This document shows, piece after piece, positions 38,981 through 64,000 of a DNA stretch of 64,000 bases (the first letter of the stretch is position 1; each line of letters opens with the position of its first letter). This DNA is from Balanoglossus misakiensis (lineage: Eukaryota; Animalia; Hemichordata). The notes under the pieces were generated by a model. The model made no database searches and was not told the DNA's origin. It was given only the letters and a program-made list of their open reading frames with translations. The stretch is taken from positions 4,606,093-4,670,092 of the forward strand of contig CM082587.2 of the NCBI GenBank assembly GCA_040954595.2, read 5' to 3'. The position numbers were made by a program, and so were the translations under genes.

Positions 38981-39554
38981 TCAACTGCCTAAGAATTCCT
39001 CCAAATGTTCCAGTTCCATGATGTACTCATTGTCAGCCATGGCTTGCTTGAGCACGCCGGTGGTGGCGCTCCTGCCGTCGTTCAGTCTCCACTTGTGGAG
39101 CATCTGGTACTTTTGTTCCTGTGCGTTGTTGGGATATTTCTGCTCTATTCTGTCCAGGTCATCCTCGTCCACGCCCAGGTGCCGCGCCAGGGCCCTTGCC
39201 TGCAGCGGGGATAACTTCTTGTGCAAGAACGAGATGGCCTTTCCGACATTATCACCTGCGTTTGAGGGCAAGGAGAACGATTTGCATATGTACACTATGC
39301 TTTGAGAGTAGAAGATTTACAACCGTGATCACAATGCCTTGCTTGCGCACATGCGTATAAAATTCGTTCGCTCTGGCCTCGGGTCAACCATAGACCCTAG
39401 GGTCTACGGGTCAACTCGCGCACCCCCTTGAATAATCTGGAAATTTGTGTTGTCAAGATGTCAAGTGATTCAAAGCAGTTTAAAGTAGATTGTACCCGCA
39501 ACTTCACGGCCCGGTTTTCGTGGTGGGCACATTACCTGGTTTGACTGACGACAT
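38981..39554 (-). CDS. Death-domain-only protein, 97 aa, FADD/RIPK1-like DD. Exons 39554-39536, 39255-38981
   Basis: MSSVKP|GDNVGKAISFLHKKLSPLQARALARHLGVDEDDLDRIEQKYPNNAQEQKYQMLHKWRLNDGRSATTGVLKQAM; polyA signal on the - strand near 38790. Confidence 0.85.
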
Positions 39555-40661
39555 GTTCCTGTACCAAATACGTCCAGTCTAGATCACGGTGGTATACCTG
39601 AACCGACCACTCCTAAAGAGAAATAGGCATGTTTCGATTCTGTTATGAAGCAAGCCCAGATTATCGTTCTGTCGACTTGCGTACATGTTTATGTACGAAT
39701 TGTCCATCAGATACCAGTAGTTGGTGATAATAGAACAGGCCAAATCTCACAAGATACTACTACGCGCACATCACACACGCACAAAGCCAGTCAGGCTACC
39801 ACCTAGAATATTTTTTATATATTCAGATATATGAAATGGGAATATAGCTGCAGCCTTACCGAAGATCAACCTCCCACTGTGCAATTGGCTAGCGAATGCA
39901 ACGGCATGGGTGTGGCGGGGGTGTTTGGTCACTAGTAAACAGACCGGTGATTTGTTTGACTGTATTGACATTTTGATACTGACTTATTCCAATTTGACAG
40001 CTCAATAAATTAAAGTGGTATCAGGCGGTGATTTAACGAACGCCCACGTGATGAGCGTGGTGATATCGGCGGGGCGATTGGAGTACTTAGCAACGCCGGA
40101 CAGATCGAGATCGGTCGGTTCAAACTGCACAGACGTCACATGAGTGACCTTTGACACCTTCACACCTGCCAAGACCAATTTCGTAAAATATGAAAATAAT
40201 AGCGTCTTCTGCAGGAAACAATGCAAAACGGAACACTGAAGGATTGAACCTTGCAGTCTGTCATTGCAGGCCAGCCAGGTGTTAAGTTATACGACTGCAT
40301 GAATGTTGAAATCGATAGTGAACATGCATGTCGACGTCACCTGACACACAAAATTGAATTTAGCCGAGTACATTTAAAATAGAGAAAATTGTTACTTTAT
40401 TAAACATTTCATTACTTCTCATATATACACATATTATATATACACATATTAATCAATTAAATTAAAATGTATTTTCTTCAAAGTCTGTGTGGTGTTCACA
40501 CACATTAATACTCATTACGTGCAAATGTGTGATTGTTGTAGAAAACACTGATTTCCACATCAGCCCAGGTATTGTCATTATTTTCTACGTTTTAAATAAT
40601 TTTCATCTCATGTGAGGACATCTGCTTGTGCCTTCGCGTTTTGAAAGTGTCTATGAGTTGA

Positions 40662-42953
40662 TTACAGCAGGTCGGCGTATTGGCCCATGTTCAACTCCAC
40701 CAGAATGTCGTATAGATGACCAACGGTACCACTATCACGTACTTCCCAAGTTTTGAAGACCTTTTCCATGGGTAACTCAGACTGCGCATAAAGCTGGATT
40801 GTAGGCGTGTCAATGCCTATTTTTTCAGCCACGGCTCTCCAGTCACGGGGATCTGTTGATGTGAAAACGTTCTGTTTTTATCACCATGGTGAAAAGTGTG
40901 CCCAGATTTGCAACTATTAGTGCATTGTGTTCGCTATGGAAAATAGAATAAGTCCGTGAGATTTCACTCCTTTTATAAAACTTAATTGTCTGCAGGTGCT
41001 ATAGGAAAATGAAACCAAAAATATTGCTCAACGTCAAATTAAGCATATACAATTGTTACATACATACTTTAATGATGCGCCTCTTCGGTTATGTCACGAT
41101 GCACCCTATGGCAGGTCAACTTGTCAACTGCCAACGTTACGAATTTTTAACGTGTATAAACATCTTGAAATCGTACCTGCTGCGTTTGGATCCTTCACAC
41201 TCAACATAGCAGTAATTTTTTGTCTGACTTTGAATGGCATTGTCAACAACGGAGTCTTTTCGTCAAGTTTTGGACCTATGAAGAGAACAAATGTATGTGT
41301 ATATGGATGAATCTGGTCAGCTCTACTTGACGTGCTTAATGTATGGAAAACCTATAGATAATAAATATCCCGAGCTATACCATGCTGAAAAAATGGTACA
41401 TCGACTTGACAAAGCAAGTACGGCAAGTCCCAGTTTCTGGGCATACTTACCTGCAGTTCCTTTTGGAAAGTGATCTCGTAAAGTAACTCCAATATCGTCC
41501 CTTTTCAGATTCTTTTCAAAGAACTTGACAAGATATCTTGGCTTAGGCCTTGGATTCATCCTTCCCCAGTATTCTATAAAACCGCGCACATTGTATTTAT
41601 TCTGTAACAAATTTTAGAAGACACACTGAAGGACTTGAAGCATATTCGAACACCATCTACATATTGATGCTTTGACAATTGCTTCATGCATAGGTCACAT
41701 ACCTCGCCAAGTTCTTGAATTTGTGATTCGGATAATTTGCATAAACGGACCAAGTCTTCGAAGTGAGCTGCTGTGAAGTCTGGCATCGTTTCCAGTTCAT
41801 CTAAAAGTTCTGTTTTTATCTGAACTTTCGCAGGACTTGTATCTCGGCCTACAGCAGAGACAAAACCGCCAGACACATAACCCATAAATTTATCCCGCAT
41901 TTGGCGACTTTCAATACTTTTTTGTAAACTTTTTTTGAATCAAGAAATAGCAATGCACTCGAAAAAGAGATTGAAATTTGGATCACAGACCTTGAGAAGA
42001 CAGGTTCATTTCTTGGACACCTCGCTGGAGAGAATCGACTGCTCCTTTGTGAATAAAAGCGGGAAATATATTTTATACGAGTTGGTTTGTAGATGATGAC
42101 TATGTCTATTACTGCACATCGAAATCTGACGTTCCGGTAAGATTTACACTTAAGTGCTTACCACAACCCTTTTCCGTCAAATGCTTTAGTAGCTCTTCTG
42201 CTTGTTGGGTATGGCCATTCCCTTTTAAAGCGTTTTCAAGAGTTTGTACAGTAAACGACATTCCGGTCTTCTTTCTGCACTTACAGACCCACCCATGCTT
42301 TTCTGATTCTATGTCATCTCTGTTCTGTCGCGATATGGTGTCAAACTCCACGTCCTTCAGGCCAAGGTCACGACACACTGCCCTGCATTCGGGCGCAGTG
42401 AGTCTCTTCGCAACAAATAGGATGGCTGTGTCAACCGCATCTATTGGAAATTGACCATACACGTTGTAGTTAACGGTGAATACGGTCACCTATGCAAATT
42501 TAGCTACAGTTACCAAGGTAAATTGAGATATAGCCAATCACAGATTTTCAGTGGGTGGCAACACGCGAAAAAAACAGCGCCACCATATGTTCTTTAGAAC
42601 ACTCAGATACGCCATTTATGGACATATGTAAATTGGAGGTGACCGTGTACCTTTAATGGCGCAGAAATATGTGTGTTGTGGAGTACCAGTAAATCGAATG
42701 CTGGACCCTTTACTCTTGTACGCGTTTTGTATATGCTTGGTGTATGAATATGGTGATAGCTTGGACGGCATCAATGTGTTTAAAATTCCATTATATGAAT
42801 CCGTAGGCACGAATTAGCACAGTTCTAAATAGAGTGGAATTGATTCTAGAACATATTATTGTCTCACTTGATATGGGCAGCAAATTGTGTTTGCAAAAGG
42901 ATAAAAACGCAATCGCAAAAAGAAACCATAAACTGTTCACCTTGTTGGGCCAT
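40662..42953 (-). CDS. Triple death-domain adaptor, 292 aa. Exons 42953-42941, 42440-42162, 41848-41703, 41601-41451, 41275-41177, 40852-40662
   Basis: DD1: DAVDTAILFVAKRLTAPECRAVCRDLGL...TVQTLENALKGNG. DD2 (divergent): FEDLVRLCKLSESQIQELGENKYNVRGFIEYWGR...LKRDDI. DD3: KVRQKITAMLSVKDPNAADPRDWRAVAEKIGI...VFKTWEVRDSGTVGHLYDILVELN. GT-AG junctions, 879 nt in frame. Confidence 0.8.
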
Positions 42954-44956
42954 CGTATGTTCGGTTACCAACACTTCCCAGAATGCGTAGTTGTATGTAG
43001 ACCTTTATAGCCTTCAAAAATAAAATAAATATCATCTGGATTATTGCTTAGAGAAAATAGTTAACCTCTAGAGTTACTGCAATCATAGCCTGTCTGTGCT
43101 ACAATCATACAAGTGCGACGATGAACATACCTCTTTGAGAACCTCATGCAAAATAACAACGGCCTCCCGTTGACTTCTGTGCTGGGGTGCCTTCTTGTGA
43201 CTCTCTTCAGTTTTCACCAGTCCCTCTTCAAGTTCAATGTACTTTATAAGTATCTGCAGTACAACTTGACATCAACAGAGGAATGTATGTCGTTACTAGT
43301 AGCCCGCAATCGTTCGTTGCACCGAGGGAAGTCTCTCATGATAATGTCACGAGCTCAATTCTACCGGGCGCTTAATATATGATTTCCCTCTCATTGCGAG
43401 ATCGCGCGAGACTTCGTTGATTACCATAGCAACGAGTGGCAAGCAATATAAATCAAGCCTTGTGTGAACCATAGACAGTATGTGTGAACCTAGAATAGGT
43501 TCAGAGTTTATCAAAATTAATCGTATGTGCCGTTTAACACGATGGACCATGTGTTGTTTGCCCTGTCCCCCCATGTTCATGTTGCTCAGACACGCCAGAT
43601 CTCACAAGGTCTGTTGGGTTCGGAAGTTGGATTTTTCAATATACATGTACGCTATAAATAAGAGTCTTGCCACTGGCACAGGCGGGTCTGCTACGATATT
43701 TATTTCGGCATTCATACCTGCGGCGGAAAGGTTAGCATTTGGCAATCCACATGCACCAGAGAGCTCAATTGGTGGCAACACTTGTACACCATTTCTCAGC
43801 GAGAGAGTGACAAACTCACATGTTAACAGCAGATTCGCGGTTCACTTAAAAAAATGTAAAGCCGATTCTGACCTTAACTGTGATTGGTCACCAGACAGTT
43901 GTTACACAGTAATATCAACACCCCTAGCCTATCGCCTGCACCATTACAGCTTCAGTGGGTTCAAAACACATAAGCTTATGAACCCGGAACCTAAATGCTC
44001 ATGATTCCAGGAAATGATTTGACTATGAATGCAATATGGTGACATTGTGACCAAGTTACCAGCTGTGATTCGTTTAAGAATGGTACAGGTGGTTCAACTG
44101 GTGATATTTTAATATATGAGGCACTTCTGGGACATGGGTCTCATTTCTGTATGTGATCATCGTAGCCTTAAAATGGGTGGAGGTCGTCCCGTCTGAAGCT
44201 GTTCGTAGTGGCGCCATAAGCAGGCTCAAAGTGTAATTGCTACAATGTACATAATTTCAAACAATCATTTTCGTCACATTTTTAATTTACTTTCAAATTG
44301 ATGTATCATTGGTTGGCAGAGTTTCCCTGAACAATGTAAACAATAAAGGTGGTGTGTTTATAAAACAGAAAAGTCGCACATGTGCAGTTCAGACGACCCT
44401 CCCCTTTACGCTTTGAATCCAGGGCGCTCAGTCAGTCACAATTCATAATTATAGAAAATGGCGCACAGCCCACTGTTTCTACCATCAACCAAACACAACA
44501 ACATGGTTATTTGAAGATAACGTTGTCGAGTTTCCAAAAGGACCCGTACAATAACACCACACACCCTTTCCTTTCACAGTCATATTTTCACACATTCGAA
44601 TACTAGTACATGTAGTAGGACGAGGAACTATGTATTCCATCAATGAATCATACTGAAAGTACTGATGTTAAAATATGACTTTTGGCACAAATGGTTCTAC
44701 AGCGATGATCTCTTTAAACCTGACATTCAAAACAACTTAAATTAACACTTTTCATATCCAAGTGTTCTGCTGCTTTCGCTTTCCCAAATACCATACCAGG
44801 TTTATAATAACATCTGGCCTAGTTAAAATCAGGTTACAGATAGGCATATATCTTCTAAAACGGTGATTAATACATAGAATACTAAATATATTAACATTTG
44901 TAACTGCTGACATAAAATATAGACCCAGCGCAGTAGGCAGCCGAGGAAATGAAACA

Positions 44957-46171
44957 TTATTTTTTCTTCTCTTTGATATAATTGGATAGTTTCTTTCGAT
45001 TCAGAAGCATACTGGCAACACCATCCAATTCATTGTCCATGAGTATATCATAAAGCTTGCCCACAGTTGCATTGGCGTCTCTTCTGGGCCACTCATCCAA
45101 CACCTCCCCCATCGGCCCCAACGTATTCTTCGTTCTTGAGAGGGCCTGCATCTCAACATATTTGATACCGATTTTCTCAGCAACAATTCTCCAGTCATTA
45201 CCTGAAAACAACGGGACGGGGATAAAGGTCAGAATGGCGGTTGAGAAACGAGGGCAGGGTTTCGCAGGCTTTTCAAAGTACCTTACAGAAATTACTGCGA
45301 AGACTTGTTCACAGCACAGCACACGAATGTTCCACTCACCGGTTTCGCGTTCAGTGTTCAGAATCAAACAGAGGTCTTTTCGTTCTATAAAACCCATATC
45401 GCTTATCTTCCTTGCCCTGTTTAATACTTGGAACAAAAGATATAAAACGCATAAAATGAACTGTTTACCATCGCGATGGGGGTCAGTACATCACTGCATA
45501 TGACACTATTCGTGGCTCAAGGATCCATTATTTAATAGGGATCAACAACATTCTTTAAATCACATGTCCACAAGACACATCGATTAATTTCGAAAATATG
45601 GTAAAGTTTGGTCCATTGTGTCCCCATTGTGCATGCGTTGAAAGGATGATAACTTCGGGGGAAGTTCATGTCTTTTGGTTTGAATTTGAACATGCAAAAG
45701 TCAAAGTTGTAGCTGACTAAGTTGCAATGATAGCTGTATATATACATTTATTTTAAACTGATTCTGAACAGCAATGTCCCAGTAGACACAATCGAATCGC
45801 AATTACCATGGTAACTAATATTAAATGTACCTTGAAAACGATGTTGTCTTTGTTCAATATAAAAGAGCTCAAAATCAAATGTTGTTACCTGCTATTTGTA
45901 AATTTGATGTCTTCTCGGTTAACTCACTCACACTACAGTCATTTTTTCCTCCTATATTCACGAACACATGCAGGTAGTTACACAAATGGCAATTCAATAT
46001 TACTTTATTTGCTTCAAATCTGCGCAACTAAAAGACAATGCCTTCACCGTACGACAAAGTATGTGATTGACGAAAAATCCTAACAAAATCGAATTATATC
46101 TCAACAAATTCAATGGCAGGAATGTGTTTCAAAAAAGAAGAATGCTTACCATCCGGCATCTTTTCTGCCAT
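44957..46171 (-). CDS. MyD88-like death-domain-only protein, 117 aa, no TIR domain. Exons 46171-46150, 45426-45340, 45201-44957
   Basis: ISDMGFIERKDLCLILNTERET|GNDWRIVAEKIGIKYVEMQALSRTKNTLGPMGEVLDEWPRRDANATVGKLYDILMDNELDGVASML. Resembles the MyD88/UNC5/p105-type DD pattern. Confidence 0.82.
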
Positions 46172-47202
46172 TTTCTTCAATAATTGTCGTTCTCAAGTCT
46201 TCTGTCGAGTTTATGTAATTAACACCGGTTACTATGACACTATGACAACCAGAAAAAATGCCATCAGATGATCTGACCAAACGATCAGTGACCAGTGCAT
46301 ATGCAGTTCCTTGAAATATGTACTATTACTAGTATTATGTGAGAAAATGAATATATACCAATAGCATAGACAGACCTGTAACTTTTACAAGGGTGTAATA
46401 TATTAACATGAATGATACAGTATACAAACTTGTTATTCGACAATGCGTATTAACAAACACGAACCAGCAACTTCAGCACAGGTATATCTTATTTGTGTCT
46501 GTTTCATGGATCAACCAGGCTGTGCAGGTGGAACCCGGAAATAACTATCACCGGAATCTAAAATGTCCCCGTTTTAGCTGCAGCGAGATATATGGTATCA
46601 TTCGATGGGTATCCAGGCGATAAACAAACGCTCAACGTGAGTGGAGAAAGCAACTTTAAAAAACATATAGTTCAAGAAGTATACTTGACCATAGAGTTAT
46701 ACTGAGATGGGTAACACTTGCGCAAATGGTCAAGGGTCATCTACGGCCACAATATACGCATCTCGCAGAGGGCGCTGCTCCAGGCGATGTTCTCTGTGTT
46801 TTACATGTACATTTATAACACAGAAAATAAACAGAGACATAAAAAATGAATTATTGTCTTATCAGTCTACAAATCAAAGTATGTAATGGCTATTTGGGTC
46901 AGAAATTACTAATCTTTTATCAAATGCCAGTCCACTTTTCCCTCAAGGCATTAAAGAAGAAGTCTTCTTTAATTTCCTCCGCAACATTTGTCAACATTTT
47001 TTCTCCTCAAAAATTCCCCCATCCACCCTCCCAGAAATCAAATGGTTCTCCCCTTAGCTCCCGTGTTTACAACGTGAGATAAAATGCTGTCACAATGGTC
47101 ACGTCGAAACAGTACGCCCCCATCAGTGAATGGTCCGGACCGGCCTTTCAGTGATAACATACACTGTGGACATTCACCACAGTAAGACGTACATCAAAGG
47201 TC

Positions 47203-48045
47203 ATGGAGACCAACAGCGAAGAGGGGACGCCTTCGAGGCGGACTCGGAAAGATGGCGGGTGCCACGGTTGGCTCGTTGTACTCGGCTCTTTCATATGTAG
47301 TATGTTCGTGTTTGGAGTCTATCCGGCGGTTGGACCATTGCTTGTCGCGATCCAGAAGTCCTTTGAGGCGACTTCAGCCCGAACATCGTGGATACTTTCT
47401 CTGCTTGTATTTCTCGAATTCGGTTTAGGTAGGTTTTATTACAGTCTGCAATGAAATCAACGCTGGAATTTCAGAGCCAACAGACTGGTAAACACGGTGT
47501 AGAATACTAGTAATCTCTCCATCCGGCGAAAACACAAAACCACTGCGTCAGGGACCGTTGATCATGTTGTCATTGTTGGTCAGTGTCGATCCTTTCGCCT
47601 CGACATTGCAGGTCATAGGTCAGGATGTCGTGGTGGGATCGACCAATCAACGTCACAGCTTCGGGGGTCATCACCCGGGGGTGTACTTCCTATATTTGCT
47701 AAACACGGTGACAAAGTGTTTTCTTTATATCATTTCATAATACCCTCACCAAGCAACAGCTGCTGCGGTGATGACAAATGTGACGATAAAAGAACATTAG
47801 TTTGTCTCTTTACATTTTATTTATAGGTCCAATAGTAAATGTAGGCGTGAAAAAGATTGGATTTCGAATGACCGTCATGTGTGGGGCAGTTTTATCCACC
47901 ACAGGGTTCTTTGTCAGTGCATTTGCGCCGAACATTGAATTTTTGTACTTAAGTCTGGGAATTTTAGTAGGTGAGTATAAGTTGACATGTCAGAGACGAT
48001 CAAATGTTTATAAAACAATCGTATAGATATCATACAGAAAGACGA

Positions 48046-48080
<35 letters not shown>

Positions 48081-49887
48081 ACACATAGACACGGGTACCT
48101 CAAGCCTTAGTTTGTGAACACGGGAGCTGATAAGGTCTCCTGTTAGTATCCTGCCTGGGCTTTATTTTTCTGTGTATACCAGCATTTCCAGCAACACTAT
48201 ACTACTATTAGCATTATTCATGTTATTAGCCGGTGATAAATTCATTGCCATATGGTCTGGTGTAAATCAGTTGTGCTTCTTTTTGGGGCACTGTCAGTTT
48301 ACCTAGCGTCGTTATCTGTTGCGTTGGCAACCCTGTGCTTTGTCACGTGCATCGCGTACATGAACGCCAGAAAGATATCGAGGAACGACTTAATATATAA
48401 AATCTGTACAGAATTCTCCGTTTTATATCGAGTGAATGTAACAGAGACCGTCCTTTAGACACACACTAGTTAAGTATTTTATAAGTGTGTAAATCTCGTG
48501 GATATCATCTGAATACGCTCTCTTTTTCTTCGTTTTTAGGATTAGGATATGGGCTGATTTTGACGCCCGCATTCGGAATTGTTGCACTGTTTATAGAGAA
48601 ACGGTTCTTGATGGCAAGTGCCCTTGTAGTTGCTGGCGGTGGAGTGGGTGTATTCATTTTCCCGCTGATATTGCAACCATGCATTGATACTTACGGATGG
48701 AAGGGCGCTGTGATTGTGTTCTCCGCCATAAACGCGCATACAGGTGTCGCTGCTGCTCTGTTCAAACCGAGGCGAACCACAGCTGAAGAAGGAAAAAATA
48801 AGGAAGAAGAAGTAAATGGAAATCACTCGCCAAGCATATTTAAAAAACTACTGCACATTTGTGATTGTACTATCTTGACCAGATTTCCAGCATTTTTGGC
48901 ATTTGCCGGTACGGCATTAACCGGGATAGGCGTCGGATTCTTCGGGGTCCCCACGCATATTGTGGCCCGCGCCGTTGACCAGCAGATCGGAACGCCCGAA
49001 GAGATTGCGCTCGTCGTTTCGTTTCTTGGAATCGGTAGCCTCGTCGGCAGAATGACTCCCGTTGTCTTGTCGTGTTGTAAATTCAAGCGGCTGACTTTCT
49101 CCCTTTGGTACGGACTTGCCTTTCTGCTGGCCGGGATCGCCTGTTTTCTGAGTACTAGTCCGTTCGCAAATACCTACGCAGTGTACGTGGTCTTTACTGT
49201 GTTTATTGGGTTCATGGTGGGATTTTGGTTCGCGATACTCGGGACAGTCCTGAAAAACATTGTTTCCACTCAGTTTTACGTCGCGGGATATGGACTCTCC
49301 ACAGTGTGTATGGCCCTTGGAGGATTAGTTGGACCAGTTTGTGCAGGTAGTCGCTCGACTTGTTCATCTCCACTATTTTTGTCAGTCCATGTCGTCATCA
49401 CCTGTTGTAGACGTGTTTCCAGTTTCTACGATTTATGAAATAGAAATTTCCTAAAATACAAAACGTAACTCACTAGTATTGTTTGTGTTAAATAATAAAA
49501 ACTCTCCGATATAAAATACCGATCAGAGTCAACATAGAACCATCGCTTGTAAATCCCTCAGTGGTTTGTCTTCATTTCAATAGAATCACGATTTCACATT
49601 TATTCAAAAATTAATGTTTTTCAGGTTACATATACGACGTCACCGGAGATTACAACAACTCCTTTTACTTCTACGGTACTTTCTTGTCGCTTGGCGGCCT
49701 CATAACCTTGGTTCCCGAGCTCTGCATTTGCATACGCCGTCAACTGTCTCAGAATGAAGACGATGAAAAAGATAGCATAGATGCCGTGCACAATGTTCAC
49801 TGCCGTATTAATGATGTCAAAGAAGCAGCAACACAGACGGGCGGAGACGTCAACTTCGATTTAATTTTGGAAACTGGGACCGCATAG
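47203..49887 (+). CDS. SLC16/monocarboxylate-transporter family MFS protein, copy 1. Exons 47203-47428, 47827-47970, 48540-49346, 49625-49887
   Basis: DGGCHGWLVVLGSF (MCT DGGWGW-like motif), ATSARTSWILS, YLSLGILVGLGYG, YGWKGA, GGLVGPVCAGYIYDVTGDYNNSF. Confidence 0.9.
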
Positions 49888-53600: not shown

Positions 53601-53880
53601 CTTTTGGAAGCTGCTTCTCACCGACCCGAGACTTGCCTATGCGTTCTACTTTTGGCCGGTAGTTGGCCAGTGGTATCGTCTCCAAGGTCCGTCTCCGTGG
53701 GGTGGCGCCAGGAAGGCCATTCTCGACGTGTGGGAAGACACGGCTTATGCCTTTAATCCCAGGTATAAAAGGAAGACTTGGAGAGAGACGATTTCGGGGA
53801 AAGGCTATGGAACGTGCGCCATCGTCGCGTGCGGGCTGGCTGTGGTTGGCATACTCTACATGCGGTCGTACTGCCCATAG
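50693..53880 (+). CDS. Flavin-containing monooxygenase (FMO). Exons 50693-50822, 51117-51578, 51945-52003, 52126-52305, 52436-52652, 53085-53314, 53545-53880
   Basis: [37 protein letters not shown] signature [37 protein letters not shown]-terminal TM anchor. Confidence 0.92.
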
Positions 53881-54265
53881 AACGGAAAGACAATCATCAC
53901 ACTACATATATTATATTAAATTGAGGGTCATTTTAAAAATAAATAGTTAATGCAGGGACTGGCGGTCATTTTGAATTTCAAATGTTTCTTTCGAAAATTT
54001 GCACGGAACCCTTTCTTTTTTTATTATCAATTTTTAAAATAGACGATCGGGGGTGGGTGCGAACTATTCCCTCTACATGACCTACGTCATCACAGAAAAC
54101 AATGGATGTGGACCAAACCATGATGGTGGAAGGGTCAAGAGAACGCATGCCTCCCAGGTGTACGACCCCACCGGAGAGTGAAAGGTCCCTGCCATTCTTT
54201 TCTGTCCCAGGTGACGCAAGGTAACCATCTGTACGAGAAAAAACATCTGTGTCGGTTATTGGGGA

Positions 54266-56947
54266 ATGGGGAACAACAGACAAGGTATGCAGGCACAGAA
54301 AGATGGCGGGTGCCACGGTTGGCTCGTTGTACTCGGCTCTTTCATTTGTAGTATGTTCGTCTTTGGATTCTATCCGGCGGCTGGACCACTGCTTGTTGCG
54401 ATCCAGAAGTCCTTCGAGGCGACTTCAGCCCGCACATCGTGGATACTCTCGCTGCTTGTGTTTCTCGAATTCGGTTTAGGTAGGTTTTTATTACAGTCTA
54501 CACTACTATACGGATGGGGTTTCAGGTAGACTTTTGAGAACACAGTTTGCAGCAGTCTTCTCACTTACCGGGAGAACAATGAGCGAGGGCTCCAGGCACA
54601 ATTGCCTCGAATATATGTCACAACCCCATAACTATCATCAGTATGCTTGGAGAAGGCTCACTGTAACATAATAGCCTCAAGGTCTACCAAGCACGTTTAA
54701 AAGCTCACCATACTTAAAGCTTGCCTTGCACTAAAGAAGATGTTCCTTAATTAGCCAGGCACCAAACGCATATTAGAAAGTACATCAACCTCATTTCTGA
54801 TGGTGCCTTCTCACCTTCCTGCAAAAGTATTGGGAATCATCATACTTAATCCTTGTAAACACTAGCAGACTTGTTACAAAGTACACACCACACCATACCA
54901 CATGTACGCCCAAGAACCACATACCAGCACACCATGCCATGTTCCAGTTGGAGCATTATTAATAGCTCATATCGTTACCACCAGCAGCCAATTGGAAAGG
55001 AAGCTACTCAGCCCGTTTTCTGTTTTATTTACAGGTCCCTTAGTAAACGTGTGCGTGAAGAAGATTGGATTTCGAATGACGGTCATAATTGGATCCATTT
55101 TGTCCACTTCTGGATTCTTTGTGAGTGCATTCGCACCGAACATTGAGTTTTTGTACTTTAGTCTGGGGATTTCAGTCGGTGAGTATGACGTTTACATTTA
55201 TTGATGAAATTATTCGCATTAACTATCATGAAATGCGAGTTATATATAAATTGATTAATGCGTCGTTTTGTAAACCCACTGATATCGGACTTGTTCTTTA
55301 CTTTATATTTTAGGATTGGGGTATGGAATGATTCTGACGCCCGCATTCGGAATTGTTGCACTGTTTATAGAGAAACGATTCTTGATGGCGAGTGCCCTTG
55401 TAGTTGCTGGCGGTGGAGTGGGTGTATTCATTTTCCCGCTGATATTGCAACCATGCATTGATACTTACGGATGGAAGGGCGCTGTGATTGTGTTCTCCGC
55501 CATAAACGCGCATACAGGTGTCGCTGCTGCTCTGTTCAAACCGAGGCGAACCACAGCTGAAGAAGGGAGAAATCAAGACCGCCACGATGCGCACAACACT
55601 GAAGAAGAACAAAATGAAAACCACTCGCCAAACAAATTTAGAAAAATACTGCGCATTTGTGACTGTACTATCTTAACCAGATTTCCAGCTTTTTTAGCAT
55701 TTGCCGGTACGGCGTTAACCGGGATAGGCGTCGGATTCTTCGGGGTCCCCACGCATATTGTGTCCCGCGCTGTTGACCAACAGATCGGAACGCCCGAAGA
55801 GATTGCGCTCGTCGTTTCGTTTCTTGGAATCGGTAGCCTCGTCGGCAGAATGACTCCCGTGGTCTTGTCGTGTTGTAAATTCAAGCGGCTGACTTTCTCC
55901 CTTTGGTACGGACTTGCCTTTCTGCTGGCCGGGATCGCATCTCTTCTGAGCCCGTTAGCAAATACCTATGTATTATACGCTGTGTATACGGTCTTTATGG
56001 GGATGATGATGGGATTTTGGTTCGCGATACTCGGGACAGTCCTGAAAAACATTGTTTCCACTCAGTTTTACGTCGCGGGATATGGACTCTCTACAATGTG
56101 TATGGCCCTTGGAGGATTAGTGGGACCAGTTTGTGCAGGTAAAATTCTGAAGTCACTCTTGTTCATTTATTTATTTATTCGCAAGTGGAGTATCTTCACT
56201 GCTGCTGTTTAATATGGTATTCAGTCCAAGCATGGAAATATTAAAGGGAACCTGATGATGTTGAGCAACGCAAAGTGGTCGCTGCTCGTTTATGGTAGAG
56301 CGTAGGCTGGTCTTTTGAACTACATGTACCTGTATAGAGGACATGCACAGTCACATATCCAGCCATTCTCCGTACAGACCCCCTAGCTAGGTTAGAATTA
56401 TCCACGCGCTTACAATCTCTGTACGTAGGATGAAATCCAACAACAGATCAGTTGCATTTGTCGTCATGCTAGCTGTGGAAACGCAGCTGTACCGTGGGGG
56501 TGGGGATATGCTGATTGTCCGTGAGGGAGTCAGCACATCCCCCACGGTACAGCTACGTTCCCACAGCTATCGTCGTTAATTATCCCCGGTTACTAAATGA
56601 TGACCATGCATACTTTTATCGCCTGTATATTCCTCAGACTTAAATTACTCCTCTTAGGTTTTTAACCCAAATAGTTCACCATTGCCTTTTATTCGAAATT
56701 TGTTGCAGGCTACATATATGACGTCACCGGAGATTACAACAACTCCTTTTACTTTTACGGTACTTTCTTATCGCTTGGCGGCCTCATCACCTTGGTACCC
56801 GAGCTCTGTACTTGTAGTCGTCGTCGACTGTCTGAACAGAATAAACAAGATAGCATTATGTCCATGGACGAAATCCAAAGCCGCGACGATGTCAGAGAAG
56901 TTGGTACACAGACGGACGAAGAGGCCAACTTGGATAATATTCTGTGA
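54266..56947 (+). CDS. SLC16/monocarboxylate-transporter family MFS protein, copy 2. Exons 54266-54479, 55035-55178, 55314-56138, 56709-56947
   Basis: Paralogue of 47203-49887 with the same intron positions; start codon uncertain. Confidence 0.9.
56470..56569. mobile_element. 100-bp imperfect hairpin (MITE-like, TA at both ends) in MCT copy 2 intron 3
   Basis: tagctgtggaaacgcagctgtaccgtggggg...gatatgctga pairs with tcagcacatcccccacggtacagctacgttcccacagcta. Confidence 0.65.
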
Positions 56948-57440
56948 TTCACGTATTGAAGGACCTGCGGCATTTTGACATTAATATTGCCGTTACACCG
57001 AGAGTTTGATTTGGATCCAGGGTAAACGGAGTCTGTGATTTAATCATGCTGATTAAAATCTCTTGTGTTTTCCTGCGCTGGAATTTTGTTTTCGCTTTCT
57101 CAACATCAACAAGTCGATGTCAGAATCATAAGTTCATTTGAAGTTGATGATAGTCACCTGGGGTGTGTTCTTTTGGTCTTTATAGGCCTATTTTACTTTC
57201 TAAATTTCACTAAACTGATAGAAAGTCGTCGTTTATTTCATATTGCGAGAAATTGCTCGATGTTTTCTTTTGTGCTATCTAACTTGCGTTTGGATCTTAT
57301 TTTCTATGTTTTTTATTACCGTTATATTGTCAACCTGTTTTATCCTTGTTTCTTTTTCTTTTTTGCGTGACTTTATTCACTTATCGTGACTATTTTCAAA
57401 GTTGATGTTGTTTTAATAGATGTATATTTACATCCTGATT

Positions 57441-57501
57441 TAAACAAACAAACAAACAAACAAACAAACAAACAAATAAATAAATAAATAAATAAATAAA
57501 C

Positions 57502-57532
<31 letters not shown>

Positions 57533-57533
57533 A
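57441..57533. repeat. (AAAC)n(AAAT)n compound microsatellite
   Basis: Read directly. Confidence 0.9.
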
Positions 57534-58501
57534 AGAGTAAACATTATTCAATGTTGTTGATGAAGTAGCATGCCAAAAGCTACACGAATAATGGGATGTA
57601 AATGTACATAATGATTTCAGTAATGTTTTACTACCCTTACCGAGAATTCGGGGTCATTTAAGGTCAGCGTAGCCAGGGCAGCCATAGATCCAGTCGTGGA
57701 CGTGCTCTCTCTTCGCAGTTACGACAAGAACTAAAAAGGCAGGGATTGAGTGATATCTGACCCTTCTTGCTGGCGATAGCTTGAAGTATAAACTGTAAGT
57801 ATTAACATATTTCTTTTCTGCAGAATATTTAAGGCATTATACTATTACTAGCCCGGGGTTTTGTATATACACAAATATTAAATGTACTTCCTCATCCTGG
57901 TGCAGTTGTCATGAATATAAAGTTCAAATATCCTAAATTTAACGATATTTTCCCTATAGACAGAGTGTTGAACTTTCTCTCTCGTATTAGTGAGACAGTT
58001 AAAGCAACAACAATGCATGATAATCTATTGGAGTTAAATCGTTGAACATCTTAAAATGTGTAAATTCCTTGCATAGCCTATATAGTACCTAGCCTACTCT
58101 ATAATTACCCAGGATTCAATGCGAAATTTAATGTACATTGTACTTTGGACGCCTGTTGTACTCCAGTTCCTATGCAGACATAATTCCGACATTTTTAGTA
58201 CACCTGCGCAAATAGACATGCAACTGTGTTACATAAATACATTAAGCTTAAACCACCAACACCACCACACATCCAATATAGCACAGTTGAAAATGTTTAC
58301 TATAGTATAAATGTGAACATTTTTTTTTTTTTTTTGGGGGGGGGGTTGTTATAATAGCAACACTGTCTTGTTCATTAATTTTGTTGCATACATCGACACG
58401 TGTACAAGTAAAGGAAGTGGAGTACAAGAAATTGGGAGGAAGACACGATCGTCAAAGACCTACAAGCCCTATTAACCTCCATTATTTTTGAGAAGGGGAA
58501 T

Positions 58502-61500
58502 ATGGCCGGCAAAGGTAAGCAACATATGACTTGTGTGACTGGGACATAATAGTGTCTAGATTTACTGTTGATTGTTGTTATTTTAAGTCGACTGAGCTAT
58601 GAACTGAGTAATCGCATCACAAATGATTCTCTTAATACTCGCTTGCTTAACCTTCAATTTTGAGTAATTTCTCTCACTCGGTCGTCTTCGTAAAAAGAGT
58701 GAAAGAGGAAATTAAGTTTCAAATTTCAGCAGGGATTGGCCTCTTGTCTGTGCTTGTAACATACACAACAACAACAACTCACTCACTCACCCACTCACTC
58801 ACTCACTCACTCACTCACTCACTCACTCACTCACTCACTCACTCACTCACTCACTCACTCACTCACTCACTCACTCACTCACTCACTCACTCACTCACTC
58901 ACTCACTCACATATAATCACCCAAAAATCTAATCTTCGGTTAAACATATACATGTACCGGTATGTGGTCAACACAAAACTCTAGCAACACACAGATTGTA
59001 AATGTGCTGATTGATTTTCCCCATTTACAGGTGATATTCTTGATACGGCCATCAAGTTTGTTGCAAAGAAAGTGACAGTGCCCCAGTGTAAAGTGGTCTG
59101 CTTGGACATTGGTTTGAATAAAGTAGACTTTGACACCATAATCAACAACAACCCTAATGATGTAGGGACACAAAAGTATTTGATGCTGGATAAATGGAAG
59201 GACAAGTTTGGAAAAGAGGCAACATTACAGGCTCTTGAAAAGGCATTGGAAGAAAATGAGTGTGCAAAAATACCGGTAGACCTCAGGCAACATTTAATAC
59301 AAAAAGGATTTCAGAGTAAGTGATGTTAATCCTGAGGCACAGATTTTAGAATGCATGGGAAAAGTACTTGTGGCTTTATTTTGAACATTTCCTTGTGAAA
59401 TTTTGTTTGCTTACTTGACTGGCACCCTTGGTGTTACTAAAACACATAAAATCAATTGTACTTCCCTTCCTATGCTGATTGTCAATGGAAACTGTTCTTT
59501 TCTTTTTCACTGTTCAAGTTGCAAGTGGAGATTCCATTCAAACTCCTCACCGACAAGAAGATATCCAAGGTGGTGGTCAAACCTCTTATCAGAAAATGGT
59601 GACAAGTAGAGCCAGAGATGACGGCAGTGCGACAGGATCGAAAGCACGGGATGAAATGGATTCGCCGCAGTCGGCATCCGCAGGTGATAACCTCATCTTC
59701 ATCGCCTGGGTGGGGGTGGGGGATGGAGGGTGAGGGGCAACGTGGTAGTACCAAAGTGACAGCTTTAGACGAAGGAAGTGTTTATAGAATTAATATTGCT
59801 TTTTCGGATGTTATAAAATAAAGCTACATACATGCATGTTTTGATATCGCCGACGTTACTGACTATAAAGGTCAGTGCAAATAGCATGTGTATTTGTCGC
59901 ATTTGCGCGGACCAATGTTTTCTGCATCAAAGTATGAAAATTAATAAAACTTCGCATTTTTAATTGCTTGTAAAATTCTCCTTGGTACTTTGCCGGTCTT
60001 CATGGTTGTGTTCTGTTTTTTTTTAAACAGATATTGCAAGTCAAACGGCAGTTGTGGGAAATGTTCTACCGAAATCTAACCAAGAAAACAACATATCTCA
60101 AAGTTCAATGTCACAACCCCAAAACACACCGGCATCAGGTGACAACGATGCAAAACACCAACCAGATACCCAGCCTTTAGAACAAGAGGGACGTACCCCT
60201 GGCACTGCAACAACGCAACCTCTCGAAGACAGACCCACAGGGGAGCCATCTGTACCTAAGGCTACAGCTCTGCCTACCGACAGTACACCAACAGTCCCAG
60301 GTGTCATCAATGGTCAAACTGCACAGCCGCACTCTCCACAAACCGAAAGTTCTGCTGGTGAAAGTTTTGCCCACCCATTCCAAGAAACACCTGCAATGGC
60401 TACAGATCCTCTGAGGCAATTGAAAGATTTCAAACTAGGACACAGGCTTAAGGTTTTTACAAGGGAAAAGATTGATGCCATTGCCAATGAGTTTGTAGAA
60501 TGCATTCAGAAAGGGAGCTTCGGCGATGTGTATAAAGGTGGGTATAATAGGCCTAGTCTACACTAAAATGTTGCACGTACATTTCTACTGCAGTGTCCTG
60601 TGGGAAATGTATGAACAGAGACACTTTAGCCATGCAAACAAGCACTCGTCAGAGAGTGCATACATATTTCTGCAGGAGTTTTACACTCATATTGTTTAAC
60701 GAATTCATATCGGGGACAAAATAAAGGTCTGTTTTATTTTTGACAGGTAAGCATTAAAAACATGTGGTTGCAGAGGGCTTTAACTGATTTAGGACTATTA
60801 CAAAAACTCTAATCATTGCAACCTTTGTTGACAAGGTTTGTTTTGTTTGGCTTATTAATAGGTAAAATGGAGCTCGGCGGCAAGTTCAATAATAAAGTTT
60901 TTGAGGTTGCCATAAAACATGTAAAACTGAACATTTTGCCTGATCAGGTTGTAGCAGACTTTAAAAGAGTGAGTATACAACATCATCGTAATGATCACAA
61001 TCTTGAGAATAAGAATTAAGTGAATCTTTGTTGGTATTGAATACATGTGAAGTCAATTGTTATGGGTTTCCCCCCAAATATACAACAAAAATATATCAAC
61101 ATTTCTTGTGTATAAAATACACATGAACATGTAGTGTTTTGTATAATCAAAATTGGTTTGCTTTTAATATGGACTAGCTTCTATTCCAGTTGATCACAGC
61201 CACATTACAGATAATGAATATTGTTAAGATTTAGTCGGTAACTTTACTGTCACATAAAGTGAGAGGATTACAGGCCTTAGGGCAAAGTCCAATCGCAGGA
61301 ATAGATTGTTTGTCTATGTACGGTTCTGAATTGTACATTGCATTGAATTTCATATTACTTACAGTTATCTTCTCTCTTCATTTTTGTGTTGAACAGCGAA
61401 GTGTTGCCAATGTTCGTCATCCCTACATTGTCCCTATTATTGGCACCTTTGACGAGCCAAGGTAAATTAGCTCCCATTATGTATAATTCCACTGACAGCT

Positions 61501-64000
61501 GATGGGTTTGTTGGCATGTATACATTTATGTATACGTATGTATGTGTGCCCGTGTGATATGTATATTTGTGTGTGTGTATGTTTATGTACATACATACAT
61601 TGGTTTCTTTCAGAGGGCCACTTCACATGGTGTACTCATACATGAAGCGTGGAGATTTAGAGCAAGCTTTGGAGAGATTGTCGGATGGCAAACTAGATTC
61701 CAACAAATGCATCACAATTGTTGCACAGATCAGCGCAGCTTTGACATACCTCCACAACCAGAGGTAAGTTCATATATATAGCTGTTATTTGTATTGTATT
61801 GTATTGTATTGTAGTGTGTTGTGTTGTGTTGTGTTGTGTTGTGTTGTGTTGTGTTGTATTGTATTGTATTGTATTGTATTGTATTGTATTGTATTGTATT
61901 GCATTGCATTGCATTGCATTGCATTGCATTGTATTGTATTGTATTGCATTGCATTGCATTGTATTGTATTGTATTGTATTGTATTGTATTGTATTGTATT
62001 GTATTGTATTGTATTGTATTGTATTGTATTGTATTGTATTGTATTGTATTGTATTGTATTGTATTAATAAGACCAGCAGTTCAATTGTCGTTTCTAATCA
62101 GTTTTAACTGTGAAAAGGGACAATTTATGGTTCGAACATCCTTGGTTCTTATTGAGACCATGCACTAAATCAGCAACCAGGTTCATTTGTAACAGATGAT
62201 CATGTCAAGCTTATCCAATGTTTTTTCTCTTTCAAGCCCACCAATTATCCATCTTGACGTCACACCAGCAAATATCCTGCTAGATGAATTCTTCAACGCA
62301 AGACTTGGAGATGTTGGTTTTTGCCATGATAAAAAAACTGTGGATAGTGATCCTTTGAAAATTCATGCCGTATTCTCTCCTGGTACACCCGGATACCAAG
62401 ATCCTTCTCTGTTGGAGGATTGGTCCTTCCAGCCGACAAATGATGTGTTCAGTCTAGGTGTTGGTAAGAATCCAGAGTTTTGTTCTGACGTGTGCTTGTG
62501 CGATCGGAGGTTTAATTTAGACAGACTGTCAGTACATGGTTTGAGGTTTGACACCTGTAAAATGTCTCACTTTAGCATAATTTGCATGTAATAGTGCCCA
62601 TGTCCACATAGAGCTCTACGCAGTATCATTTTTAAAACCAATTACTTTTGTTTTGGTTTGTATAATGTGCTGTGTTGTGTTGTGTTGTGTTGTGTTGTGT
62701 TGTGTTGTGTTGTGTTGTGTTGTGTTGTGTTGTGTTGTGCTATGTTGTGCTGTGTTTTACAATTACAGTGATGCTGCGAATGTTGACTGGAATGCCAGCA
62801 CTCGTCAATGATGTACAAAAACCACCACTGTCCTTGCATGCGCATCTCCGAAAGCAAGATTGTTTCAAAGACATACAGAAGCTGTTCCAAAAAGTCATCA
62901 GGGTATAGAATTAATAATGTTTATTTTGAATTTTGGCCACTTGAACATGCGCAGGGACGTCTCATCTTAAACCAATTGGGGCAAAATAGATGACATTTTT
63001 TTTCAATGTTTTAAGGTTACATAATTATTTAGGCAATGAACAGATATAATAATCATGCATTCAGTGTATCAATACATTGGAAAGATTTGTTTAATTATGC
63101 CATTTCTTTAATCTTTTTTCCCTGCAGTGTGTGTGGCTTTCTGATGAGAACAAAACAAATGCTAAAGCATTTGCAGAACTTATGTGCAAGTGCATTAAAC
63201 CAGCGTCGGAAGAGAGAATTTCAATGGCAGAACTCCACAAACAAATGAAGGTAAAGAGTTTTTGTGCTTAATAAATGGCGACAAAAATTGCATCTATGAT
63301 GAACAGATCACATGATATTATATGGAAAAATTCGATTCAGATTGCATAATGCTGCTTGTTTTAAAGTCGTACTCTTTTTTGTATTCATGGTTTGCATACA
63401 GGACCTGGTTCTTGACCACCTCTTCCATAAATCAGTGGATGGGACTGCAGAGGAACTGTGTGTCTTTTGCCATTTAAACCCAATTGGTAAGAAATATAAA
63501 AAGGTGTAATTTTTCAGCATATTCACATGATGTTTATCATCAAACAAATATATGTGATGTCGGGGATGTTTTGTCTCACGCTTGCCAGTGACCCATTGTA
63601 AGACAAAAGTCCCCAACTTGTGTAAGGTATATCTACCGGTAATCCCAGATAATTTAGGACGTGTGATTCACTTTATTCACTCTTTAATTTCAGTGCGTGA
63701 TCTCCACTTAATCAGCAAACAATGTACTGATACATGTGATGTAGCGTGTGTACAGTGTCTGATAGATTCCAAGACAAATCCGTTGGTATGCCCTGAGCAC
63801 GGGCCAGCACAGCCACCCATTGGTGAGTTACTGAGATTGGAATCATGAGTGTTTTCCAGAATCATTCTCTGATTCACTTGTGGCAGCACAAAATGTACCT
63901 TACATTAGTGCATCCAATTGCAATAATCCACAGGAAAGTTTCTTTACTCATCAATACTTAAAACGTGCACACATATGGATCTTTGTATTTCTGACAGATG
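58502..64000 (+). CDS. Death domain + Pro/Ser/Thr linker + Pelle/IRAK-type kinase + Cys-rich RING-like region, 3'-partial. Exons 58502-58514, 59031-59315, 59519-59683, 60031-60537, 60862-60968, 61397 (or 61382)-61461, 61614-61763, 62237-62463, 62769-62902, 63128-63250, 63402-63486, 63694-63822, 63998-
   Basis: LKVFTREKIDAIANEF...IQKGSFGDVYKG, VAIKHV, RHPYIVPIIG, MVYSYMKRGDL (Tyr gatekeeper), ISAALTYLH, IIHLDVTPANILLDEFFNARLGDVG, GTPGYQDP, NDVFSLGVVMLRMLTG. Confidence 0.88.
58780..58910. repeat. (CACT)n microsatellite
   Basis: Read directly. Confidence 0.95.
61790..62065. repeat. Compound pentanucleotide microsatellite (GTATT/GTGTT/GCATT)n
   Basis: Read directly; source of several spurious ORFs. 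Confidence 0.95.
62666..62756. repeat. (GTGTT)n microsatellite
   Basis: Read directly. Confidence 0.95.

What the first reader, a model, noticed from the sequence alone, without database searches (positions are those of the whole stretch)
38981..64000. Clustered death-domain signalling kit: two DD-only proteins, a triple-DD bridge and a DD-IRAK-like kinase
Seen: four genes within 25 kb use two DD types. Type A (D.[VL]..AI.F[VL].K[KR][LV]...LG[VL]...D.I...A[LM]..N, FADD/RIPK1-like) occurs alone (39 kb), at the N-terminus of the triple-DD protein and at the N-terminus of the kinase. Type B (DWR.VAEKIGI...PM..V...W....TVG.LYDIL, MyD88-like) occurs alone (45 kb) and at the C-terminus of the triple-DD protein. 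No TIR, DED or CARD domain is visible. Known: Myddosome/PIDDosome-type complexes assemble by DD-DD polymerisation, and DD-only proteins often act as decoys. Inference: a lineage-specific, self-contained innate-immune or cell-death module in which the A-x-B protein couples a MyD88-type surface to the type-A kinase, with each DD-only gene as a regulator.
Basis: partly seen in the sequence, partly recalled or inferred. Interest (0 to 1): 0.85.

Follow-up and report, generated by a model that had tools for sequence, protein, structure and literature searches.

The report
Acorn-worm death-domain kinase-protease locus
Four genes in this likely acorn-worm stretch carry cell-death 'death domains', and the kinase among them runs on into a zinc finger and, judging by its relatives, likely into a bacterial-style caspase-like protease just past the end of the sequence, so the cluster is predicted to be an adaptor plus a kinase-protease effector rather than an ordinary immune kinase pathway.

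Summary
The death domains are real. The four gene models have GT-AG introns and open frames, and there are two DD types: A (Fas/FADD/RIPK1-like) and B (MyD88-like). The middle domain of the three-domain gene is a divergent death fold of unresolved subtype.

1. The kinase gene continues into a Cys/His zinc finger and runs off the window. In 4 of 5 related genes found (Ptychodera, Glandiceps, Owenia), a caspase-like C14 domain follows. It has an SGH...DCC dyad and its nearest look-alikes are bacterial.
2. The set is not local. Ptychodera and Glandiceps have the same adaptor with an extra N-terminal CARD, plus A-B two-DD genes. In Ptychodera the adaptor and the kinase orthologue have consecutive accessions on one contig.
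3. The kinase has lost the catalytic-loop Lys and, under the best splice, the alphaC Glu, so it may be a pseudokinase.

Nothing here shows expression, binding or a decoy role, and the protease exons lie outside the window. Verdict: a new variant of invertebrate domain-shuffled death-fold signalling, with an apparently undescribed kinase-zinc finger-protease family.

The parts
38981..39255 (-). Gene 1 terminal exon: type-A death domain only, ends in TGA. Candidate first exon 39554-39536 (MSSVKP). AATAAA at 38794.
   Evidence: Pfam Death 51.3 bits; best PDB hits RIPK1/TNFR1/FADD DD; model
40662..42953 (-). Gene 2, three-death-fold adaptor A-middle-B. Exons 42953-42941 (candidate start), 42440-42162, 41848-41703, 41601-41451, 41275-41177, 40852-40662; 292 aa plus stop; no CARD found.
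   Evidence: orthologues P0128/P0277; CARD search
42162..42440 (-). Gene 2 type-A DD exon, phase 1-1. Degenerate: Pfam below cut-off, and Cys in place of the Trp kept in 9 of the 10 type-A rows aligned.
41451..41848 (-). Gene 2 middle domain (two exons): divergent six-helix death fold, subtype unresolved
   Evidence: 41-43% identity to the relatives' middle domain; relative's model pLDDT 83.8; all 50 listed structural matches are death-fold entries or designs based on them, best Z 7.7
40662..41275 (-). Gene 2 type-B (MyD88-like) DD, two exons, ends in TAA
44957..46171 (-). Gene 3, type-B DD only. Exons 46171-46150 (candidate start MAEKMPD), 45426-45340, 45201-44957; 117 aa.
   Evidence: Pfam 35.8 bits; best PDB hit MyD88; 42-48% identity to the B half of A-B two-DD proteins P0147, P0172, P0178
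59031..59315 (+). Gene 4 type-A DD exon, phase 1-1, donor GTAAGT. Candidate first exon 58502-58514. Its joining to the kinase exons is inferred, not shown by RNA.
   Evidence: groups with the adaptor's A domain
59519..60537 (+). Gene 4 low-complexity linker exons 59519-59683 (optional) and 60031-60537. The latter ends in the kinase Gly-rich loop.
60862..63250 (+). Gene 4 IRAK/Pelle-group kinase exons 60862-60968, 61397-61461, 61614-61763, 62237-62463, 62769-62902, 63128-63250. Motifs VAIK, HLDVTPAN, DVG; no alphaC Glu under the best splice.
   Evidence: family placement via relative P0001
63402..63822 (+). Gene 4 RING-like Cys/His finger, exons 63402-63486 and 63694-63822 (C-x2-C-x15-C-x3-C-x3-C-x2-C-x10-C-x2-H).
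   Evidence: 68% identity over 44 aa to P0009 and 61% to P0001
63998..64000 (+). First three bases after a splice acceptor, at the position where relatives begin the caspase-like C14 domain. The domain itself is outside the window.
   Evidence: acceptor and phase; relatives

Best explanation
This is a likely acorn-worm locus in which a three-death-fold adaptor (gene 2) is predicted to recruit, through related Fas-like death domains, a fused effector (gene 4) made of a death domain, an IRAK-like kinase that is likely impaired, a zinc finger and, likely beyond the window end, a bacterial-style caspase-like protease that clustering would switch on.

Shown here: the domains, the open exon chains, the kinase lesions, the zinc finger, the adaptor's orthologues, and the C14 His-Cys dyad in relatives.

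Inferred: that the DD exon is spliced to the kinase; that this copy has the protease exons; that the adaptor's B domain plugs into a MyD88/IRAK-type death-domain assembly upstream; that A-to-A contacts bring in gene 4; that proximity activates the protease, as for initiator caspases and MALT1 (established knowledge); and that the finger acts as a RING E3.

Gene 4 likely gained its DD by shuffling of the adaptor's phase 1-1 exon, where its closest Glandiceps relative carries DEDs. Genes 1 and 3 are likely partial duplicates of an ancestral A-B two-DD gene and may or may not act as modulators.
For: - Gene 4 model: 13 exons, 664 aa, no stop, all GT-AG. 54% identical over 242 aa to P0009 and sister to it in the kinase tree (SH-aLRT 98).
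- P0009, P0001 and P0008 meet Pfam Peptidase_C14 (42.9, 27.8, 33.4 bits; cut-off 21.4). P0010 has the same SGH/DCC motifs. That is 4 of 5 related genes.
- The window's finger ends with the same PPI(G) and a GTGAGT donor, with the next acceptor at 63997.
- The C14 region of P0009 is nearest to bacterial caspase-like clusters by features (0.95) and by model (TM 0.61-0.65), and has no PDB sequence match at E<=10.
- The adaptor is conserved in two other acorn worms.
- In Ptychodera the adaptor (XP_070532868/9), the kinase orthologue (XP_070532870) and an A-B gene (XP_070532859-61) share a 40,999,305-base contig.
- g2A and g4A group with the adaptor's A domain (91/92).
- N-termini of the kinase family vary: DED in P0007/8 and P0010, DD-DD in P0282.
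Against: - The protease exons are not in the window and no genome is held. One of the 5 related genes (P0030/P0282) stops right after the finger.
- P0009 is an N-terminally truncated model and P0001 has no death fold, so no database protein shows DD-A fused to this kinase.
- Three unrelated genes separate gene 2 from gene 4.
- Linkage in Ptychodera is read from accession numbers and contig length, not from DNA. In Glandiceps the kinase relative found lies on another contig than the adaptor.
- Gene 2 lacks the CARD of its orthologues, its A domain is degenerate, and gene 4 has kinase lesions. All of this could mean decay.
- The Atlas warns that bacterial rows are no sign of gene transfer.
Confidence: 0.4

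Rival explanations
1. Duplication history without a shared complex. The genes sit together because an ancestral A-B gene array was duplicated and shuffled locally. Genes 1 and 3 are truncated copies, gene 2 lost its CARD and gene 4 is drifting, and each works alone or is decaying.
For: Gene 3 best matches the B half of A-B proteins (42-48%), and gene 1 matches an A half at up to 41%. g2A is below the Pfam cut-off. Kinase lesions. Intervening MFS and FMO genes. g1A is a long, unplaced branch.
Against: No stop or frameshift in any exon of the four models. Paralogous A exons keep second codon positions (58-71%) far better than third (33-46%), which fits past purifying selection. AATAAA/ATTAAA signals follow all three minus-strand stops. 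Adaptor-kinase adjacency appears to recur in Ptychodera.
Confidence: 0.3
2. One reading: a Myddosome-like module in which the bridge couples a MyD88-type surface to an active IRAK-like kinase that signals by phosphorylation, with the two DD-only genes as decoys.
For: B is MyD88-like. The kinase belongs to the IRAK/Pelle/RLK group. VAIK Lys and the catalytic Asp are kept. Weaker splice sites (donor 3-4 of 8 consensus matches) could restore a Glu before the conserved RHP motif.
Against: Catalytic-loop Lys is Thr here but Lys in 5 of 5 related genes. The best donor (6 of 8) gives no alphaC Glu, which 4 of 4 relatives covering that region have. The kinase's DD is Fas-like, not IRAK-like. The reading ignores the finger and the likely protease.
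Confidence: 0.15
3. The 59 kb DD exon is a third DD-only gene (it can read on to a stop a few codons past the donor). The kinase-finger-protease gene starts separately, like the DD-less models P0001 and P0009, so there is no DD-kinase fusion.
For: The ORF 59015-59323 ends in TAA just after the donor. None of the 163 proteins from the DD search, with their cluster members, carries type-A DD plus this kinase-finger unit, apart from P0282, whose DD match to P0178 is on the B side.
Against: Consensus donor AGA|GTAAGT. The following exons are phase-matched and stop-free. No other start or N-terminal death fold was found for the kinase. Three relatives of the kinase do carry N-terminal death folds.
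Confidence: 0.15

Closest known systems
IRAK4/Pelle kinases and the Myddosome (MyD88-IRAK4-IRAK2)
   Same: N-terminal death domain, low-complexity linker and a kinase of the IRAK/Pelle/RLK group (via P0001). The B domains are MyD88-like.
   Different: The kinase's DD is Fas-like. HLD rather than the RD of IRAK4 (PMC3498205, passages). Catalytic-loop Lys lost. Extra zinc finger and likely protease. No TIR in any model.
MALT1 type 1 paracaspase (DD-Ig-Ig-caspase-like)
   Same: A death domain heads a caspase-fold protease that is activated on an adaptor scaffold (PMC5978004, passages).
   Different: Kinase and finger replace the Ig domains. The relatives' C14 region has no PDB sequence match at E<=10, to MALT1 or to caspases.
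RAIDD/CRADD, FADD and PIDDosome/DISC-type adaptors
   Same: Adaptor made only of death folds. Orthologues start CARD-DD like RAIDD (fold matches Apaf-1 CARD Z 15.9 and FADD DD Z 15.6).
   Different: Three or four death folds in one chain, mixing a Fas-like and a MyD88-like DD. The window's copy lacks the CARD.
Invertebrate 'shortcut' fusions: amphioxus TNFR-caspase, LRR-caspase and DD-caspase; kinase-prodomain caspases of Macrostomum lignano and Eisenia andrei
   Same: Domain shuffling joins signalling and protease domains in marine invertebrates (PMC2575513 and PMC11463336, passages).
   Different: The amphioxus TNFR- and LRR-caspases have the canonical QACxG site, and the worm kinase-caspases were placed in caspase trees. 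The family here has SGH...DCC, a finger and an N-terminal death fold. I did not have those proteins to compare.
Bacterial caspase-like C14 proteases (metacaspase/orthocaspase-like, e.g. NCBIfam caspase_w_EACC1)
   Same: Nearest look-alikes of the relatives' C-terminal domain. Weak NCBIfam hits, E 2.5e-9 to 4e-4, far below the family cut-off.
   Different: Embedded in an intron-rich animal gene. No tree was built, so transfer is not shown.

Membership tests
IRAK/Pelle kinases | Kinase domain of the IRAK/Pelle/RLK group | tested here: met
   Relative P0001: best PDB hits are plant RLKs and IRAK4 (about 101 bits) versus RIPK4 73 bits. Gene 4 groups with P0001 (no vertebrate IRAK rows in that tree).
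IRAK/Pelle kinases | N-terminal death domain of the IRAK type | tested here: not met
   The type-A profile matches Fas 59, FADD 40 and RIPK1 35 bits. No IRAK chain is among the 49 hits at E<=0.01.
IRAK4 orthologues | RD motif in the catalytic loop | tested here: not met
   HLD in gene 4, P0001, P0007 and P0009; HRD in P0010 and P0282. Feature from PMC3498205 passages.
Active Ser/Thr kinase | VAIK Lys, alphaC Glu, catalytic Asp, catalytic-loop Lys, DFG Asp | tested here: not met
   Lys of VAIK, Asp and DVG are present. Catalytic-loop Lys is Thr. alphaC Glu is absent under the best splice, present only with weaker sites.
MyD88 | MyD88-like death domain | tested here: met
MyD88 | C-terminal TIR domain | tested here: not met
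   Both B domains are followed by a stop in the same exon. No TIR in Pfam scans of these ORFs or of the orthologue P0128.
RAIDD/CRADD-type adaptor | N-terminal CARD before the DD | tested here: inconclusive
   Present in P0128 and P0136. No hit better than E 5.6 in the window with a two-sequence profile; a very diverged or split CARD could be missed.
Death-fold superfamily (middle domain of gene 2) | Six-helix death fold | tested here: met
   Model of the Glandiceps domain: six helices, pLDDT 83.8. All 50 listed matches are CARD, DD, DED or PYD entries, or designs based on them; best Z 7.7, rmsd 2.8, 86 aligned. The tool notes that Z under 8 can be a common arrangement.
Death domain (DD) subfamily (middle domain) | DD rather than CARD, DED or PYD | tested here: inconclusive
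   CARD (7.7, 7.4), IRAK2/Pelle DD (7.0, 6.8) and DED (6.6) are tied within about 1 Z. Atlas top hits are Death clusters at 0.88, a lead only.
Peptidase C14 (caspase-like) | C14 domain with His-Cys dyad in this gene | not testable with these tools
   Would start at base 63998. No genome held. Dyad present in 4 of 5 related genes.
Canonical animal caspases | QACxG active-site motif | tested here: not met
   Relatives have DCCY; no PDB sequence match at E<=10. Tested on relatives only.
MALT1 type 1 paracaspase | Ig domains between DD and protease | tested here: not met
   No Ig domain in Pfam scans of P0001, P0008, P0009 or P0010
RING E3 ligases | Eight zinc ligands in RING spacing | tested here: inconclusive
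   Seven Cys and one His in RING-like spacing; all eight are shared with P0001, P0007, P0009 and P0010. No Pfam RING hit.

The most novel reading that the evidence does not exclude
Acorn worms and the annelid Owenia share an undescribed death-signalling effector that joins a swappable death fold, an IRAK-like kinase, a RING-like finger and a bacterial-type (non-caspase, non-MALT1) C14 protease in one chain. In acorn worms it is paired with a dedicated adaptor that bridges MyD88-type and Fas-type death-domain assemblies. This would be a third kind of caspase-fold protease in animal immunity, wired straight to Toll-type signalling.
Probability: 0.3. Interest if true: 0.8.

Novelty: new variant of a known kind. 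Interest (0 to 1): 0.55.

Why it matters
Animal death-fold signalling is usually described with two kinds of caspase-fold protease: QACxG caspases and MALT1-type paracaspases (own knowledge; PMC5978004 passages). A family with a bacterial-like SGH/DCC protease fused to an IRAK-like kinase, in a deuterostome and an annelid, would be a third kind and would link Toll-type and death-receptor-type surfaces directly. It is testable with ordinary protease and binding assays. The locus also shows exon-level swapping of the docking domain (DED in relatives, a DD like the neighbouring adaptor's here). If the protease exons are absent or the genes are decaying, it is one more example of domain shuffling in marine invertebrate immunity.

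Tried and rejected
- No whole genome is held, so bases beyond 64000 could not be read.
- RNA run search on 38700-46400: no RNA holder listed, which is no evidence either way.
- Word-index search with the gene 3 DD among longer proteins: 0 of 48 candidates.
- Complex prediction of g2A with g4A: no answer (score 0.00; alignments not used).
- Foldseek on the four-domain adaptor model: nothing at E<=0.001. The wide search covered only the first two domains, so the middle domain was folded alone.
- A putative CARD/DED relic at 43086-43271 had no Pfam hit and was not among the CARD or DED profile hits; rejected.
- A hidden type-A exon upstream of gene 3 was sought and not found: the next-best hit in the window was E 0.23, at 30 kb.
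- The idea that g4A is the displaced A half of gene 3 is disfavoured, because g4A groups with the adaptor's A and not with the A of A-B proteins.
- The 66-row DD tree did not finish its careful search; the quick tree is quoted. It kept the 60 best of 115 candidate domains and left out 12 redundant isoforms or cluster members.
- Searches contained off-by-one exon ends, and a mis-signed acceptor phase. These were corrected.
- Literature: ten searches listed no paper describing this architecture. The library lacks most subscription papers and I read no supplements; those of PMC11463336, PMC2575513 and PMC8195603 could list such proteins.
- Earlier scan findings: none near this locus, none by words or by P0009 sequence.
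Full report
SETTING. The window is intron-rich animal DNA of about 40% GC. No whole genome is held. The best database matches to the kinase and to the adaptor are acorn-worm proteins (Ptychodera flava, Glandiceps talaboti) at 40-60% identity, so the source is likely an acorn worm. Unreviewed notes on other pieces of this genome say the same; I treat them as a lead only.

OBSERVATION. Pfam finds Death in five ORFs: 39 kb (51.3 bits), 40.8 kb (32.0), 45 kb (35.8), 59 kb (36.3) and, below the 22.6 cut-off, 42.3 kb (18.7). Exon chains with GT-AG introns and matching phases give four models without internal stops: gene 1 (A only, minus), gene 2 (A-middle-B, minus), gene 3 (B only, minus) and gene 4 (plus). 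First exons are candidates chosen by ATG, donor and phase. The A domains are 29-43% identical to each other and the two B domains 35%, while A-B matches are short. A profile of A and A-B proteins matches Fas (59 bits), FADD (40) and RIPK1 (35) over A, and MyD88 (50) over B. Profiles of the relatives' CARD, DED and caspase-like domains found nothing better than E 0.4 in 2802 six-frame ORFs. Two MFS transporter paralogues and a flavin monooxygenase lie between gene 3 and gene 4.

GENE 2 IS A CONSERVED ADAPTOR. An HMMER search of 1.84 billion representatives with the three A domains gave 600 hits at E<=0.001, of which 150 were listed. The best single-stretch hit is P0128 (Ptychodera XP_070532869), and the next single-stretch hit is P0136, with isoform P0277 (Glandiceps LOC144441476). 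Both read CARD-A-linker-middle-B and match all three domains of gene 2 at 39-51%. The window's copy lacks a detectable CARD and the long linker, and its A domain has Cys where 9 of the 10 type-A rows aligned have Trp. The middle domain, folded from the Glandiceps sequence, has six helices (pLDDT 83.8). All 50 listed structural matches are death-fold entries or designs based on them, with CARD, DD and DED tied (best Z 7.7). 'Triple death fold' is therefore supported; 'triple DD' is not resolved.

THE DD-ONLY GENES. Relatives have two-domain A-B proteins: P0178 (Ptychodera), P0147 and P0172 (Glandiceps), P0285 (Saccoglossus). Gene 3 matches their B half best (42-48%, against 35% to gene 2's B). 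Gene 1 is a long, unplaced branch among A domains. So the two types travel together because the ancestral unit had both, and genes 1 and 3 look like halves of it. They are intact, have downstream AATAAA or ATTAAA signals, and A exons show stronger conservation at second than third codon positions. Nothing tested here bears on a decoy role. In the careful 21-row tree, g2A and g4A group with the adaptor A domains of Ptychodera and Glandiceps and with P0166 (91/92). A clade of the three window A domains is neither found nor rejected (p-AU 0.08). In the quick 66-row tree, g2B pairs with the Ptychodera adaptor's B (92).

GENE 4 IS MORE THAN A KINASE. The best hit of one kinase exon was P0001 (Ptychodera, 943 aa): kinase plus Peptidase_C14. 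A search with its residues 270-943 (lengths 518-1651 only; best 120 of 1122 hits listed) returned five animal genes: P0001, P0009 and P0030 (Ptychodera), P0007/8 (Glandiceps) and P0010 (Owenia); nearly all the other listed rows are plant receptor kinases. All five have a Cys/His finger after the kinase. Four continue into a domain with SGH and DCC motifs; Pfam C14 is met in three and NCBIfam gives weak caspase hits in all four. The window encodes the same finger in two exons (68% to P0009 over 44 aa). It is followed by a GTGAGT donor and a phase-matched acceptor three bases before the window ends. Gene 4 is sister to P0009 (SH-aLRT 98; 13-row quick tree without vertebrate IRAKs). The C14 region of P0009 has no PDB sequence match at E<=10, and its nearest Atlas clusters are bacterial caspase-like proteins by features and by model (counted as one source; not evidence of transfer). 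That gene 4 has the protease is an inference I put at about 0.8. N-termini differ across the family: DED in P0007/8 and P0010, two DDs in P0282, none in the models P0001 and P0009. The A exons of genes 2 and 4 are both phase 1-1, which fits exon shuffling (inference).

KINASE STATE. The domain belongs to the IRAK/Pelle/RLK group (on P0001). It keeps VAIK, the catalytic Asp and the family's DVG, but reads HLDVTPAN where 5 of 5 related genes have Lys. Of 9 in-frame splice pairs around helix C, the one with the best donor (6 of 8 consensus matches) omits the Glu seen in 4 of 4 relatives covering that region. Four pairs with weaker donors (3-4 of 8) would supply a Glu behind an insertion. A pseudokinase or weak kinase is likely but not certain, and assembly error cannot be excluded without reads.

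LINKAGE. In Ptychodera the A-B gene (XP_070532859-61), the adaptor (868-869) and the kinase orthologue (870) lie on a contig of the same length, 40,999,305 bases. That consecutive NCBI accessions usually follow gene order is my own knowledge; I could not see the DNA. In Glandiceps the adaptor and two A-B genes share a 25,083,287-base contig, but the kinase relative found is on another.

MECHANISM. Most likely the adaptor's MyD88-like end joins an upstream death-domain assembly, its Fas-like end recruits gene 4 through the related A domain, and clustering activates the C-terminal protease, with the impaired kinase and the finger as scaffold and ubiquitin control. In relatives the CARD would add a second output. 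Every step after the domain anatomy is inferred from how Myddosome, DISC and CBM complexes work (established knowledge); none was shown here. Joint confidence is 0.4. The rivals are duplication history without a shared complex (0.3), an active Myddosome-like kinase module (0.15) and a separate DD-only gene in front of a DD-less kinase (0.15).

COMPARISON AND NOVELTY. It works like a fusion of IRAK, a RING E3 and a MALT1-like protease, but fails membership of IRAK4, MyD88, MALT1 and canonical caspases on the tested features. Fusions that shortcut immune pathways are known in amphioxus (PMC2575513, passages), and kinase-prodomain caspases were noted in Macrostomum and Eisenia (PMC11463336, passages). 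Marine invertebrates, hemichordates included, have lineage-specific death-fold architectures (PMC8195603, passages). Bivalve p10-less caspases re-BLAST to metazoan caspases (PMC7836458, passages). RD/non-RD features come from PMC3498205 (passages) and paracaspase types from PMC5978004 (passages). PMC8662601 (passages) added nothing on this family. Ten searches listed no description of the death fold-kinase-finger-SGH/DCC protease family or of the CARD-A-middle-B adaptor; I read no supplements and the library is incomplete.

VERDICT. It is a new variant of a known kind, interest 0.55. The most interesting part, the protease, lies just outside the window and rests on orthologues.

Noticed in passing
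window 35982-38747 (+): One ORF starts with a degenerate histone H4-like stretch (about 49 aa, E 1e-4 to H4) and continues into a BACK domain, followed by a Kelch-repeat ORF. Either an H4-derived piece fused to a BACK-Kelch gene or a decayed H4 copy inserted in it.
   Followed up: partly
window 47158-49887 and 54215-56947 (+): Two MFS transporter paralogues, 83-94% identical over exons only, flanking a flavin monooxygenase gene at about 51-53.9 kb.
   Followed up: partly
P0282 (Ptychodera XP_070576017): Related kinase-finger gene with two N-terminal death domains, an intact HRDIK loop and no protease. One DD matches the B type, making it a candidate partner type for the B domains.
   Followed up: partly
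P0185 (Glandiceps XP_077985144): A type-A DD nearly sister to that of the A-B protein P0147 heads a 671-aa protein with a P-loop-like motif (seen by eye; tree), suggesting the same exon was also shuffled onto an NLR-like NTPase.
   Followed up: no
window 46171-38981 (-): All entry acceptors of genes 1, 2 and 3 are phase 1, so one short first exon could in principle splice to any of them as alternative terminal cassettes. Separate candidate first exons also exist.
   Followed up: no
window 43131-43253 (-): A 123-base open stretch flanked by good-looking acceptor and donor sites (phase 0-0) upstream of gene 2, with no Pfam or CARD/DED hit. Unexplained.
   Followed up: partly
window 31131-35120 (-): Exons with weak hits to ATG27 (E 0.016) and Lipocalin_2 (E 0.033), likely a mannose-6-phosphate-receptor-like gene and an apolipoprotein D-like gene.
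   Followed up: no
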